This document shows positions 1-1,085 of a DNA stretch of 1,240 bases, in pieces. Position 1 is the first letter of the stretch. Every line of letters begins with the position of its first letter. The stretch comes from Naegleria gruberi (taxonomy: Eukaryota). The notes below the pieces were generated by a model. The model ran no database searches. It worked only from the letters and a program-made list of their open reading frames with translations, and was not told the DNA's origin. The translations under genes were made by a program, and so were the position numbers. The stretch lies in assembly GCA_000004985.1 (NCBI GenBank), contig GG739484.1; one strand, written 5' to 3'.

Positions 1-1
1 A

Positions 2-109
2 CATATTGTTTTGTGTCTTTCAGGTGATGAATGTAATCCTTTAAGATTAGCAATTTTTGTCAATGATTATGAAGGTGAAGATTCACAGGTTGCATTGGAG
101 CTTGAATAG
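2..109 (+). CDS. Possible 3' end of a gene entering from the left edge (35 codons plus TAG); product unknown
   Basis: The frame starting at position 2 is open from the window edge and reads HIVLCLSGDECNPLRLAIFVNDYEGEDSQVALELE*, with stop TAG at 107-109. The peptide is not low-complexity. It uses the same preferred codons (ggt, gaa, gat, tta, aga, att, gtt) as the two complete ORFs. Its orientation is convergent with the 309..524 ORF, leaving about 200 bp for two 3' UTRs. Caveats: only 35 codons are visible, and the opposite strand is also open over 63..173. Confidence 0.35.
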   Translation, partial: HIVLCLSGDECNPLRLAIFVNDYEGEDSQVALELE

Positions 110-260
110 CATCATCCACCAATCCAAATTGTTTTTTTAATTCCTCAATATCAGTTGCACCATCATATGTTCTTCACAAAATGAAACAAGCTGATAGTGA
201 ACACATCAGATTCTGCAAATACTGGAACATTTGATTTTCAACTCTTTGTTATTATTTTGG

Positions 261-272
261 TTTTATTTACAA
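261..272 (-). terminator. Putative polyadenylation / 3'-end element TTGTAAATAAAA (contains AATAAA) for the 309..524 ORF
   Basis: The minus strand reads TTGTAAATAAAA, beginning 36 nt after the TAG stop of the 71-aa ORF. An identical 12-mer lies 40 nt after the stop of the 97-aa ORF (1074..1085). Confidence 0.45.
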
Positions 273-308
273 TGAATGCCTAGGGTTCAAAATGATGAGT
301 TGGGGAGA

Positions 309-524
309 CTACCACTTTTTGAATTTTTTGTTTCTCATTTCCAAAGTGTTATGTGATTGAGATTTGGAAGTTTTGCTTGTTTCACTTCCAATAGAATTCA
401 ATGTTTTGTAATCAATTAAATTTCTTCTTCTTGTTCCACCCACAATATTATCCAATGAAATTTCGGAATTAAATTGTGAAGTGTTATTGGAGGAATTATA
501 CATATTTCTCCTTGTTGAGACCAT
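309..524 (-). CDS. Small basic Ser/Asn/Lys-rich protein (71 aa) with a CHZ-like motif (SLDNIVGGTRRRNLIDYK); paralog of the 740..1033 ORF
   Basis: Complete ORF from ATG (524-522) to TAG (311-309). The start context is AAGAAAATGG, with A at -3. An in-frame TGA lies 11 codons upstream, so this is the first ATG. The motif encoded at 405..461 matches 11 of 19 residues of the motif in the divergent ORF, including a shared nucleotide 9-mer GGAACAAGA (429..437 reverse complement versus 881..889). The N-terminus (RNxxNSS) and C-terminus (NKKFKKW versus NKKITKSKKM) also align. By length alone a 71-codon frame is only modestly unusual in AT-rich DNA. The paralogy is the main support. Confidence 0.6.
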   Translation of the reverse strand: MVSTRRNMYNSSNNTSQFNSEISLDNIVGGTRRRNLIDYKTLNSIGSETSKTSKSQSHNTLEMRNKKFKKW

Positions 525-533
525 TTTCTTATT

Positions 534-550
534 GTTATTTTCTTTTGTTG
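534..550 (-). promoter_or_regulatory. Conserved leader element CAACAAAAGAAAATAAC (copy upstream of the 71-aa ORF)
   Basis: The minus strand reads CAACAAAAGAAAATAAC and ends 9 nt before the ATG. It matches CAACAAAACAAAATAAC at 701..717 on the plus strand at 16 of 17 positions. Confidence 0.45.
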
Positions 551-583
551 GTTTTCATTAAATTTCTTTCATCAAAATATTAA

Positions 584-591
584 TATAAAAA
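584..591. promoter_or_regulatory. TATA-box-like element TATAAAAA, overlapping the 10-bp palindrome ATATTAATAT (577..586)
   Basis: It matches the TATA(A/T)A(A/T)(A/G) consensus. It lies 60 bp upstream of the minus-strand ATG and about 150 bp upstream of the plus-strand ATG. TATA-like strings are common in AT-rich DNA, so this is weak. Confidence 0.3.
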
Positions 592-609
592 TTCAAACTT
601 CTTGTGATG

Positions 610-624
610 AGTGGAAAATCCACT
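610..624. repeat. Perfect short palindrome/hairpin AGTGGA-AAA-TCCACT
   Basis: The 6-bp arms at 610..615 and 619..624 are exact reverse complements separated by a 3-nt spacer. Confidence 0.6.
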
Positions 625-651
625 AAAAATCGGAATCATAAAATTAGTGGA
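619..651. repeat. Inverted repeat TCCACTAA ... TTAGTGGA (8-bp arms, 17-nt spacer)
   Basis: 619..626 and 644..651 are exact reverse complements. The centre (about 635) is close to the midpoint (632) between the two ATGs. The left arm overlaps the right arm of the 610..624 palindrome. Confidence 0.6.
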
Positions 652-701
652 ATCATCATGGAAATAAATAGATAATTGGTATCGGATGATGATATTTCCA
701 C
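647..701. repeat. Imperfect inverted repeat GTGGAATCATCAT ... ATGATGATATTTCCAC
   Basis: The left arm at 647..659 is GTGGAA-TCATCAT. The reverse complement of 686..701 is GTGGAA-ATA-TCATCAT. That gives 13 matched positions with one 3-nt indel and a 26-nt spacer. The direct repeat GGAATCAT also occurs at 632..639 and 649..656. Confidence 0.55.
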
Positions 702-717
702 AACAAAACAAAATAAC
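701..717 (+). promoter_or_regulatory. Conserved leader element CAACAAAACAAAATAAC (copy upstream of the 97-aa ORF)
   Basis: It matches the reverse complement of 534..550 at 16 of 17 positions and ends 22 nt before the ATG at 740. It is followed by a local ATAAC duplication (ATAACTAAATAAC). Confidence 0.45.
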
Positions 718-739
718 TAAATAACAAATACTAATCAAA

Positions 740-1033
740 ATGCCAGCTAGAAATACTTCATCAAATTCTTCATCTTCCGAAGATAGAATTCCAACAAAAA
801 CAGTCTGGTCAAGATCTAAACCAATCGATTTATCTAAAAGATTACCATTATTTGATATTGATACATCTAATATTATTAGTGGAACAAGACATCGTAATAA
901 TATTGATTATCATCATGCAAATTTAAATGGTAAACAAATTTCAGTGAAAAGATCTTCTAAAAATTCAATTGAAAAGAGAGCTAAACAATCAACCACCACT
1001 AATAAGAAGATTACCAAATCGAAAAAGATGTAA
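740..1033 (+). CDS. Small basic protein (97 aa) with a CHZ-like (Chz1-type histone H2A.Z-H2B chaperone) motif DIDTSNIISGTRHRNNIDYHH; otherwise uncharacterised
   Basis: Complete ORF from ATG 740 to TAA 1031-1033. The start context is ATCAAAATGC, with A at -3, and an in-frame TAA lies 6 codons upstream. A 97-codon open frame is uncommon in DNA this AT-rich because stop codons are AT-rich. Codon use is strongly biased (all 5 Pro are CCA, 7 of 8 Arg are AGA, all 4 Leu are TTA). The motif at 857..913 resembles the Chz1 CHZ motif as I recall it. It is paralogous to the divergent 71-aa ORF. The Lys/Arg-rich C-terminal third (KRSSKNSIEKRAK...NKKITKSKKM) is NLS-like. Confidence 0.72.
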   Translation: MPARNTSSNSSSSEDRIPTKTVWSRSKPIDLSKRLPLFDIDTSNIISGTRHRNNIDYHHANLNGKQISVKRSSKNSIEKRAKQSTTTNKKITKSKKM

Positions 1034-1073: not shown

Positions 1074-1085
1074 TTGTAAATAAAA
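1074..1085 (+). terminator. Putative polyadenylation / 3'-end element TTGTAAATAAAA (contains AATAAA at 1079..1084) for the 740..1033 ORF
   Basis: It begins 40 nt after the TAA stop and is identical to the 12-mer on the minus strand at 261..272. A second AATAAA lies at 1109..1114. Confidence 0.45.

What the first reader, a model, noticed from the sequence alone, without database searches (positions are those of the whole stretch)
309..1033. Head-to-head pair of diverged paralogous mini-genes (inverted duplication including UTR elements)
The 71-aa and 97-aa ORFs face outward from a shared promoter and align along their whole architecture. N-termini: M..RNxxNSS...SE, including a shared TCCGAA (Ser-Glu). 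Core motif: ISLDNIVGGTRRRNLIDYK versus IDTSNIISGTRHRNNIDYH, 11 of 19 identical, with a shared GGAACAAGA at nucleotide level. Both then have an LN / NSI segment. Lys-rich ends: NKKFKKW* versus NKKITKSKKM*, with AAAAAG-nTG-TAn shared at nucleotide level. Noncoding elements on both sides (a 17-mer in the leaders, a 12-mer in the 3' UTRs) are also mirrored. This indicates an inverted duplication of a whole transcription unit. Afterwards the unstructured parts diverged strongly while the motif and the flanking regulatory elements were retained. Retention of two copies under a common bidirectional promoter suggests co-regulated, possibly co-acting, products.
Basis: seen in the sequence. Interest (0 to 1): 0.65.

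Follow-up and report, generated by a model that had tools for sequence, protein, structure and literature searches.

The report
Paired tiny CHZ-motif genes in Naegleria
The two back-to-back small ORFs are real, conserved sister genes of the amoeba Naegleria; each encodes a tiny, basic, disordered protein carrying the short histone H2A-H2B docking motif known from the yeast chaperone Chz1, and one of the two is missing from the reference genome annotations that could be checked.

Summary
The window is Naegleria DNA from the gruberi group. It carries a 71-aa ORF (524-309, minus; "L") and a 97-aa ORF (740-1033, plus; "R"), head to head across 215 bp.

Their similarity is far beyond chance (0 of 5000 shuffles) and lies in a CHZ-type motif. 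R matches Pfam CHZ above threshold and is 15/23 identical to the yeast Chz1 motif.

The same L/R pair occurs head to head in three further lineages, including N. fowleri. Both genes are under purifying selection (dN/dS about 0.2-0.5; two L alleles differ by 7 synonymous and 0 non-synonymous changes). Family profiles reveal a second shared, colinear motif (S-x-N-T/S-L/I/V-E-x-R-x-K).

An ancient inverted tandem duplication is therefore well supported. The "mirrored UTR elements" are not good evidence for it. The A/C-rich leader and TGTAAATAAA occur at unrelated Naegleria genes. N-terminal and Lys-tail likenesses are not significant.

Both proteins are basic (pI 10-11), predicted disordered, and lack the acidic and DEF/Y regions of Chz1. 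They are most likely minimal H2A(.Z)-H2B binders; this function is inferred.

L is unannotated in the N. fowleri reference. Natural deletion alleles remove L in one contig and R's start in another, suggesting redundancy. Interest is moderate.

The parts
309..524 (-). Gene L: 71-aa basic, disordered mini-protein (CDS including stop)
   Evidence: ORF. Orthologues of 70-74 aa: P0006, P0007, P0008. dN/dS 0.24-0.5, and 7 synonymous / 0 non-synonymous differences between L004 and L005. pI 10.5. AF2 mean pLDDT 54.
405..464 (-). CHZ-like motif of L (residues 21-40, EISLDNIVGGTRRRNLIDYK)
   Evidence: Pfam CHZ 21.1 bits, below the 23.3 cutoff. 10/23 identical to yeast Chz1 motif, E = 0.003. Motif-only profile comparison with R: E = 1.7e-11.
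327..356 (-). Second conserved motif of L (SHNTLEMRNK, residues 57-66)
   Evidence: SHNTLEMRN is invariant in all four L orthologues. Aligns colinearly with R's SKNSIEKRAK, P = 2.3e-4 on C-terminal halves alone. AF2 places a short helix at 61-68.
525..739 (.). Shared 215-bp intergenic region, presumed bidirectional promoter plus the two 5' leaders
   Evidence: Intergenic length is 179-254 bp in the orthologous loci. Conserved blocks are visible. Seven 7-mers are shared by all five lineages against 0.27 expected. Promoter function is inferred.
611..651 (.). Central symmetric element: GTGGAAAATCCAC (611-623) and TCCACTAA-N17-TTAGTGGA (619-651)
   Evidence: GAAAATCCAC and GTGGAA are conserved in the gruberi-group contigs. 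ATTTCCA/GTGGAA-type words occur in all five intergenic regions. Its centre (about 634) is close to the midpoint of the two ATGs (632). A role as a transcription-factor site is inferred.
534..550 (-). A/C-rich leader element of L (sense strand CAACAAAAGAAAATAAC)
   Evidence: Inverted repeat I5, 94% complementary to 701-717. 5 of 500 shuffles reach the score. Similar leaders occur at unrelated Naegleria genes.
701..717 (+). A/C-rich leader element of R (CAACAAAACAAAATAAC)
   Evidence: ACAAAACAA is conserved upstream of R in all lineages, but this type of leader is generic in Naegleria.
740..1033 (+). Gene R: 97-aa basic, disordered mini-protein (CDS including stop); orthologue of N. gruberi XP_002674900.1 / NAEGRDRAFT_69990
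   Evidence: ORF. Homologues at 69-95% identity. Accessions. dN/dS 0.16-0.38. pI 10.9. AF2 mean pLDDT 58.
788..847 (+). R-specific conserved block (IPTKTVWSRSKPIDLSKRLP, residues 17-36), absent from L
   Evidence: Most conserved stretch of the R family, K-T-E-W-x-R-S-x-P-I-D-x-x-K-R-L-P. No counterpart in the L alignment. Function unknown.
848..913 (+). CHZ motif of R (residues 37-58, LFDIDTSNIISGTRHRNNIDYH)
   Evidence: Pfam CHZ 25.9 bits, above the 23.3 cutoff. 15/23 identical to yeast Chz1 residues 92-114, E = 3e-5.
953..985 (+). Second conserved motif of R (SSKNSIEKRAK, residues 72-82)
   Evidence: Conserved in all R orthologues except the L007 variant. Aligns with L's SHNTLEMRNK.
261..272 (-). 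TTGTAAATAAAA, 37 nt after the L stop: probable polyadenylation signal
   Evidence: TGTAAAT(AA) also follows the L orthologue in L006 and unrelated genes in L006 and L009. The poly(A) role is inferred.
1074..1085 (+). TTGTAAATAAAA, 41 nt after the R stop: probable polyadenylation signal
   Evidence: TGTAAATAA is conserved after R in L001, L002 and L003. The poly(A) role is inferred.

Best explanation
The window holds a conserved, divergently arranged pair of paralogous Naegleria genes. They arose by an inverted tandem duplication before the N. gruberi / N. fowleri split. The products are small (70-100 aa), strongly basic and intrinsically disordered. Each is built around a CHZ motif, the short bipolar peptide (acidic/hydrophobic half, then an Arg-rich half ending in I/L-D/N-Y) by which yeast Chz1 and human HIRIP3 dock on H2A(.Z)-H2B dimers. 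About 17-20 residues further on, each has a second shared short helical motif (S-x-N-T/S-L/I/V-E-x-R-x-K) and a Lys/Arg-rich tail.

The most likely mechanism is that both proteins enter the nucleus via their basic tails and bind H2A-H2B or H2A.Z-H2B through the CHZ motif. They would act as minimal, partly redundant histone-dimer escorts or binders. The pair would be transcribed from one roughly 200-bp bidirectional promoter with a symmetric GTGGAA/TTCCAC core.

Shown: the genes exist, are paralogous, are syntenically paired, are under purifying selection and carry a CHZ-type motif. Inferred: histone binding, nuclear localisation, shared promoter and redundancy.
For: - Motif identity: Pfam CHZ hit above threshold for R. 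R is 15/23 and L 10/23 identical to the structurally defined Chz1 motif of 2JSS/6AE8.
- Paralogy: BLASTP E = 9e-8. 0 of 5000 shuffles reach the score. hhalign E = 8e-10. A second colinear motif gives P = 2.3e-4.
- Conserved pairing in L004, L006, L007 and L009. L007 and L009 are N. fowleri.
- Purifying selection on both genes; L004 and L005 differ by 7 synonymous and 0 non-synonymous changes.
- Disorder and basic charge.
- The CHZ motif is necessary for H2A-H2B binding in HIRIP3 (PMC10854748) and is described as a common histone-dimer binding device across eukaryotes (PMC6544321).
- Reciprocal natural deletions of L or of R's start.
- Conserved central intergenic words.
Against: - There are no transcript, proteomic or binding data.
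- The proteins lack the acidic N-terminal helix and the DEF/Y motif, which give Chz1 much of its affinity and its DNA-shielding activity (PMC6544321, PMC3395605). HIRIP3 needs about 124 residues around the motif for full affinity (PMC10854748).
- Most orthologues score below Pfam's CHZ threshold, and P0007 does not hit at all.
- The deletion alleles come from short metagenome contigs of unknown zygosity.
- The leader and poly(A)-like similarities are generic.
Confidence: 0.6

Rival explanations
1. They bind chromatin rather than soluble histones. The Arg-rich half of the motif would act as an arginine anchor on the H2A-H2B acidic patch of assembled nucleosomes, and the basic tails would contact DNA, as in small architectural or reader proteins (HMGN-like, or like the 53BP1 UDR peptide).
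For: - Strongly basic, with no acidic stretches that could shield histone DNA-binding surfaces.
- The best PDB match of the L-family profile is the 53BP1 UDR peptide ADISLDNLVEGKRKRR. Its basic stretch contacts the acidic patch on the nucleosome (PMC5458496).
- The CHZ motif lies on the H2B alphaC helix and reaches H2A alpha2, on the same histone-dimer face (PMC10854748).
Against: - The UDR match is not significant (E = 0.16).
- Pfam CHZ does not recognise the UDR sequence.
- R is much closer to the Chz1 motif, which binds free dimers.
Confidence: 0.22
2. The motif resemblance to CHZ is only a compositional or short-linear-motif coincidence. The proteins would do something unrelated to histones, for example nucleolar or RNA-binding basic peptides, or an NLS-type signal.
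For: - The motif is short.
- Most orthologues fall below Pfam's gathering score, and one L orthologue gives no hit.
- No PDB hit was found with single sequences.
- The conserved R-specific block KTEWxRSxPIDxxKRLP has no known counterpart.
Against: - IDTSNII is identical in R and yeast Chz1, with the same G-x-R-x-R...IDY continuation.
- Two gruberi-group R proteins pass the curated threshold.
- The motif is the most strongly conserved shared part of both families.
Confidence: 0.12
3. L is not a functional gene. It would be a decaying relic of the duplication or a chance ORF in AT-rich spacer DNA, with R the only functional gene.
For: - L is absent from the NCBI-sourced proteins the searches returned for N. 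gruberi, and no gene is called at its site in the N. fowleri reference.
- One gruberi-group contig has lost its 5' half.
- The window's L scores below the Pfam threshold.
Against: - The ORF is intact, with the same start (MVS/CTR), similar length and in-frame indels only, in four lineages whose synonymous sites are near saturation.
- dN/dS is 0.24-0.5. The 7:0 synonymous-to-non-synonymous split between L004 and L005 has a chance of about 2e-5 under neutrality (my estimate from the site counts).
- SHNTLEMRN is invariant.
Confidence: 0.03
4. L and R are not products of a local inverted duplication. They would have come to lie head to head by rearrangement, or acquired the motif independently.
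For: - N-termini and tails are not significantly similar.
- R has a 20-residue conserved block that L lacks.
- DNA-level symmetry is weak and made of generic elements.
Against: - Two colinear shared motifs.
- Adjacency and orientation are conserved in all lineages, while the outer flanks are not.
- MVSRT (R in L006 and N. fowleri) resembles MVS/CTR (L) at the start.
Confidence: 0.03

Closest known systems
Saccharomyces cerevisiae Chz1 (YER030W), H2A.Z-H2B chaperone; PDB 2JSS, 6AE8, 8QZ0
   Same: Same CHZ motif. R is 15/23 identical to Chz1 residues 92-114, including IDTSNII and G-x-R-x-R...IDY. Both are small and intrinsically disordered when free (PMC6544321).
   Different: Chz1 is 153 aa and has an acidic N-terminal helix region, H2A.Z-specific contacts and a C-terminal acidic DEF/Y motif (PMC6544321, PMC3395605). 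The Naegleria proteins are 70-100 aa, have pI 10-11, and have only 4-7 acidic residues and no DEF/Y. They have their own second motif and, in R, a KTEWxRSxPID block.
Human HIRIP3 and plant AtChz1/OsChz1 (CHZ-motif proteins of higher eukaryotes)
   Same: They carry the CHZ motif and lack the H2A.Z-specific elements and DEF/Y. The motif is indispensable for H2A-H2B binding, and they show little or no preference for H2A.Z (PMC10854748, PMC6544321). This is the nearest functional analogy.
   Different: They are large proteins (HIRIP3 is 556 aa) with Glu-rich and poly-Ser regions and an extended binding domain of about 124 residues (PMC10854748). The Naegleria proteins are motif-plus-tail mini-proteins and occur as a linked paralogous pair.
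N. gruberi predicted protein XP_002674900.1 / NAEGRDRAFT_69990 (UniProt D2VM29), with partial XP_002668573.1
   Same: Orthologue of gene R (90-91% identity). It already carries an automatic Pfam CHZ assignment.
   Different: It is uncharacterised. Its 116-aa model has a C-terminus that disagrees with all other orthologues and is probably mis-modelled. No partner gene L is among the database proteins found.
53BP1 ubiquitylation-dependent recruitment (UDR) peptide, PDB 5KGF chain L
   Same: ADISLDNLVEGKRKRR resembles L's SEISLDNIVGGTRRRN. Both are hydrophobic/acidic followed by an Arg-rich run, and the UDR basic run binds the H2A-H2B acidic patch (PMC5458496).
   Different: The match is not significant (E = 0.16). 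Pfam CHZ does not hit the UDR. The UDR works on ubiquitylated nucleosomes next to a Tudor domain.

Membership tests
Pfam CHZ (PF09649) motif family | Score against the curated Pfam model at or above the gathering threshold (23.3 bits) | tested here: inconclusive
   R passes: window 25.9 bits, P0003 25.4 bits. L does not: window 21.1 bits. Other orthologues score 11-21.6 bits, and P0007 gives no hit. So R is a member by Pfam's rule; L is tied to it only through homology with R.
Pfam CHZ (PF09649) motif family | Sequence correspondence with the structurally defined CHZ motif of yeast Chz1 (residues 94-115) | tested here: met
   R: 15/23 identical, E = 3e-5. L: 10/23 identical, E = 0.003. R-family profile: P = 1.8e-4.
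Fungal Chz1-type H2A.Z-specific chaperone | Negatively charged N-terminal helix region preceding the motif, which binds basic histone surfaces | tested here: not met
   The regions before the motif are S/T/N-rich and basic. Whole proteins have 4-7 D+E against 10-22 K+R, and pI 9.9-11.1. The feature is defined in PMC3395605.
Fungal Chz1-type H2A.Z-specific chaperone | C-terminal DEF/Y motif (run of D/E followed by Phe/Tyr) | tested here: not met
   The C-termini are KKITKSKKM (R) and RNKKFKKW (L). No acidic run is present in any orthologue. The feature is defined in PMC6544321.
Fungal Chz1-type H2A.Z-specific chaperone | Preferential binding of H2A.Z-H2B and delivery to SWR1 | not testable with these tools
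   Needs ITC or pull-down with Naegleria histone dimers.
HIRIP3 / plant Chz1-type CHZ proteins | Large multidomain protein with Glu-rich and poly-Ser regions and an extended CHZ domain of about 124 residues | tested here: not met
   L is 70-74 aa and R is 88-100 aa in total. The feature is described in PMC10854748.
53BP1 UDR-like nucleosome/ubiquitin reader peptide | Significant sequence match to the UDR | tested here: inconclusive
   The L profile against 5kgf_L gives E = 0.16. Ubiquitin or nucleosome binding cannot be tested here.
Inverted tandem duplicate (divergent paralogue pair) | Homology of the two products and conserved head-to-head adjacency in related genomes | tested here: met
   hhalign E = 8e-10 with two colinear motifs. 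The pair is present head to head in L004, L006, L007 and L009.
Inverted tandem duplicate (divergent paralogue pair) | Mirror-image homology of the noncoding parts (promoter, leaders, 3' ends) beyond generic signals | tested here: inconclusive
   The leader match reaches p of about 0.01, but the same kinds of element occur at unrelated genes. The central symmetric GTGGAA/TTCCAC element is conserved but could be a palindromic factor site rather than a duplication relic.

The most novel reading that the evidence does not exclude
Naegleria's L and R could represent a distinct class of 'CHZ-only' basic microproteins. In this reading they work differently from acidic histone chaperones, for example as NLS-bearing import adaptors for H2A-H2B dimers or as acidic-patch readers on nucleosomes. 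The CHZ motif and the 53BP1 UDR would then be versions of one ancient nucleosome or histone-dimer docking peptide. The pair would be a natural minimal system for dissecting what the CHZ motif does on its own.
Probability: 0.15. Interest if true: 0.6.

Novelty: new variant of a known kind. Interest (0 to 1): 0.38.

Why it matters
The CHZ motif is known from large or acidic histone chaperones (Chz1, HIRIP3, plant Chz1). What the motif does by itself is still debated.

Here an early-branching eukaryote, including the pathogen N. fowleri, keeps two tiny basic proteins that are little more than the motif, a short helix and a basic tail. They have stayed a linked pair under purifying selection across the genus.

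One of the two is an unannotated microprotein gene, which is a concrete correction to the N. fowleri annotation and probably to that of N. gruberi. The pair also offers a minimal natural test case for CHZ-histone recognition and for redundancy after an inverted duplication.

This is not a new kind of system, and no function has been shown.

Tried and rejected
- Exact look-ups of both window proteins, and of the two N. gruberi entries, found no contig.
- The word-indexed protein search with L found nothing. Only the exhaustive HMMER search found L orthologues.
- Two scans of JGI metagenome contigs, with the R and L profiles, returned no confirmed relatives.
- PDB searches with R alone and with the R profile (ATP synthase b at E about 0.1) were uninformative.
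- AF2 models of both proteins had low confidence (pLDDT 54-58), so no fold search was run.
- Rfam and tRNA scans of the window found one weak sub-threshold snoRNA-like hit and nothing else.
- The flanks of the window were compared with all loci and with V-ATPase d, which is the neighbour of L in N. fowleri. No shared synteny was found outside the pair.
- The Willaertia magna region around V-ATPase d has no L/R pair within the 14 kb read.
- An apparent echo of R's motif DNA in the intergenic region (638-665 against 870-922) was tested and is not above shuffles.
- Pfam scans of the flank ORF fragments and of the 53BP1 UDR gave nothing.
- Literature searches for the locus tags, and for Naegleria together with CHZ, found no prior study.
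- The bacterial promoter/terminator scan was not used, because the DNA is eukaryotic.
Full report
**What is in the window**

The 1240-bp window is AT-rich (about 29% GC). It holds a 71-aa ORF on the minus strand (524-309, "L") and a 97-aa ORF on the plus strand (740-1033, "R"). They face away from each other across 215 bp.

R is 88-95% identical to five database proteins. Two of them are Naegleria gruberi predicted proteins: XP_002674900.1 / NAEGRDRAFT_69990 and the partial XP_002668573.1. The window is therefore Naegleria DNA of the gruberi group.

**Checking the observation**

The core similarity is real.
- BLASTP aligns L residues 21-67 with R residues 39-83, 20/47 identical, E = 9e-8.
- The local score of 82 was never reached in 5000 shuffles (mean 33, max 63).

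Within the window alone, the other likenesses are not beyond chance.
- N-terminal likeness: p = 0.09-0.19.
- Lys-rich C-terminal likeness: p = 0.26-0.32.
- DNA match over the motif: 38 of 500 dinucleotide shuffles reach it.
- Leader match: marginal, 5 of 500 shuffles.

**What the motif is**

Both ORFs hit a single Pfam family, CHZ (PF09649, the histone chaperone domain of Chz1). R scores above the curated threshold (25.9 against 23.3 bits). L scores just below it (21.1 bits).

I retrieved the yeast Chz1 motif from solved structures: 2JSS chain B, 6AE8 chain C and 8QZ0 chain K, sequence DDLAEIDTSNIITSGRRTRGKVIDYKKTAEELDKKE. R is 15/23 identical to it, including IDTSNII and the G-x-R-x-R...IDY continuation (E = 3e-5). 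L is 10/23 identical (E = 0.003).

**Are both ORFs genes, and is the pair conserved?**

The word-indexed search found nothing for L. The exhaustive HMMER search found three proteins of nearly the same length: P0006 (72 aa), P0007 (70 aa) and P0008 (74 aa).

On their contigs, each L orthologue lies head to head with an R orthologue, 179-254 bp away.
- L004.
- L006, a 15-kb contig.
- L007.

L007 is N. fowleri. Its neighbouring V-ATPase subunit d is 100% identical to FDP41_006170. The same pair sits in the N. fowleri reference contig VFQX01000051.1 (L009). There R is annotated (6978-7280, 100 aa), while L (7535-7756, identical to P0008) has no gene call.

Both genes are under purifying selection.
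- Nei-Gojobori dN/dS is 0.16-0.38 for R and 0.24-0.50 for L.
- Synonymous divergence is about 1 or higher (near saturation) in the comparisons with the L006 and N. fowleri lineages.
- The two L alleles of L004 and L005 differ by 7 synonymous and 0 non-synonymous changes. Given 45 synonymous and 171 non-synonymous sites, the chance of this under neutrality is about 2e-5 (my calculation).
- All length differences are in frame. The start MVS/CTR and the block SHNTLEMRN are invariant.

L is therefore a real, conserved microprotein gene, not a relic.

Outside the pair, the flanks are not shared between the window, L006 and N. fowleri. The pair itself is the conserved unit.

**How far does the paralogy extend?**

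Profile-profile comparison of the L family (A3) and the R family (A4) gives E = 8e-10 over 48 columns. I split the alignments to see where the signal lies.
- Motif alone: E = 1.7e-11.
- C-terminal halves alone: KSQSHNTLEMRNKK aligns with KRSSKNSIEKRAKQ at P = 2.3e-4.
- Cross controls give nothing.
- N-terminal parts do not align.

There are therefore two colinear shared motifs. This supports a whole-gene duplication rather than a shared short motif only.

R orthologues in L006 and N. fowleri begin MVSRT, close to L's MVS/CTR. This is suggestive but was not tested.

R also has a strongly conserved block, KTEWxRSxPIDxxKRLP, which L lacks.

**The noncoding "mirror" elements**

ACAAAACAA-type words are conserved in the R leader and, in reverse complement, in the L leader of all five lineages. 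However, unrelated N. fowleri and L006 genes have the same kind of A/C-rich leader directly before the ATG, for example GCAACAAAACAAA-ATG and CTCCAACAACAAAAAA-ATG.

TGTAAAT(AAA) also follows unrelated genes. It contains AATAAA and is most simply a polyadenylation signal (inference).

These elements are real and probably functional, but they are generic. They do not show that the UTRs were co-duplicated.

The centre of the spacer carries a symmetric element, GTGGAAAATCCAC and TCCACTAA-N17-TTAGTGGA at 611-651. It is conserved in the gruberi-group contigs. ATTTCCA/GTGGAA words are present in all lineages. It is a candidate bidirectional promoter element (inference).

**Properties and likely mechanism**

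- All L and R proteins have pI 9.9-11.1, with 10-22 K+R against 4-7 D+E, and are S/T/N-rich.
- AlphaFold models are low-confidence, with only short helices. One helix lies over the second motif.

In yeast Chz1, the bipolar CHZ motif (residues 94-115) docks on the H2A.Z-H2B dimer by complementary charges (PMC3395605). It lies on H2B alphaC and reaches H2A alpha2. In HIRIP3 the motif is indispensable for H2A-H2B binding (PMC10854748). CHZ-motif proteins outside fungi bind both H2A-H2B and H2A.Z-H2B with lower affinity and little preference (PMC6544321).

The best-supported reading is therefore that L and R are minimal H2A(.Z)-H2B binders. This is an inference.

They lack Chz1's acidic helix region and DEF/Y motif (PMC6544321). 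They should not be filed as Chz1-type chaperones. They may work differently, for instance on assembled nucleosomes.

The best PDB match of the L profile is the 53BP1 UDR peptide ADISLDNLVEGKRKRR (E = 0.16). Its basic run binds the nucleosome acidic patch (PMC5458496). This match is not significant, and Pfam CHZ does not hit the UDR. It is a lead only.

**Natural variants**

- A gruberi-group contig (L001) lacks window 380-566. This is a 187-nt deletion between TTTCA repeats. It removes L's leader, start codon and CHZ motif, while R is intact.
- Contig L005 lacks 92 nt that include R's leader and start codon, with no in-frame Met left. Its L is intact.
- The metagenome-derived N. fowleri contig L007 has an in-frame 36-nt deletion that removes R's second motif.

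These variants suggest that each gene is individually dispensable. That fits redundancy better than obligate co-action. Zygosity is unknown.

**Verdict**

The proposal is partly supported, with three corrections.
- The shared motif is the known CHZ histone-binding motif.
- The UTR "mirror" elements are generic signals.
- Co-action is unsupported.

R was already in the databases with an automatic CHZ tag. L is unannotated in the N. fowleri reference, and no N. gruberi protein matching L was found in the searched databases.

The pair is a new, minimal, basic variant of a known motif family. It is of moderate interest, and no function has been demonstrated.

Noticed in passing
L001:1-120 versus window 316-620: A closely related contig carries a 187-nt deletion (window 380-566) flanked by a TTTCA microhomology. 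It removes the leader, start codon and CHZ motif of gene L. The last 23 codons stay almost unchanged, so this looks like a recent loss-of-function allele.
   Followed up: partly
L005 (reverse-complemented) about 795-800 versus L004 (reverse-complemented) 615-706: The sister contig of L004 lacks 92 nt that cover gene R's leader, ATG and first ~15 codons, with no in-frame Met left. Its L gene is intact and differs from L004 by synonymous changes only.
   Followed up: partly
N. gruberi XP_002674900.1 (P0004), corresponding to window about 985-1110: The 116-aa reference model leaves the conserved C-terminus (…KKITKSKKM*) after EKR-x-K. It continues with residues (…FVNKKR…) that correspond to the window's 3' UTR read in another frame. 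This is probably a mis-modelled intron.
   Followed up: partly
L009:7535-7756 (N. fowleri VFQX01000051.1): The 74-aa L orthologue is present and intact in the N. fowleri reference genome, between the annotated R gene and V-ATPase subunit d. No gene is called there.
   Followed up: yes
L007:600-1000 versus L009:6880-7290: Two N. fowleri-type sequences are identical from R's ATG through L and V-ATPase d. Across the R coding region they are only about 93% identical, with in-frame indels including a 36-nt deletion of the second motif. Beyond R's stop they do not align. L009 has a reverse-transcriptase/endonuclease element (4334-6778) next to R. This could be a haplotype boundary, a recombination breakpoint or an assembly chimera.
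   Followed up: no
window 405-470 (L motif); PDB 5kgf chain L: The L-family profile's best match among solved structures is the 53BP1 UDR peptide ADISLDNLVEGKRKRR (E = 0.16, not significant). That peptide binds the nucleosome surface and acidic patch. Pfam CHZ does not recognise it.
   Followed up: partly
window 611-651: There is a palindromic GTGGAAAATCCAC and an 8-nt inverted repeat, TCCACTAA-N17-TTAGTGGA, at the centre of the spacer. The centre (about 634) is close to the midpoint of the two start codons (632). The element is conserved in the gruberi-group contigs.
   Followed up: partly
window 788-847 (R residues 17-36): The best-conserved stretch of the R family is not the CHZ motif. It is the block K-T-E-W-x-R-S-x-P-I-D-x-x-K-R-L-P just before it. 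L lacks this block, and it matches no Pfam or PDB entry.
   Followed up: no
window 1-308 and 1100-1240: The flanks hold only short ORF fragments running off the window, for example the minus-strand …TYDGATDIEELKKQFGLVDDAIQAPMQPVNLHLHNH* ending near 60. None has a Pfam match. There is a weak sub-threshold snoZ168-like hit at 73-121 (E = 0.29). L001 stops resembling the window after about 1113.
   Followed up: partly
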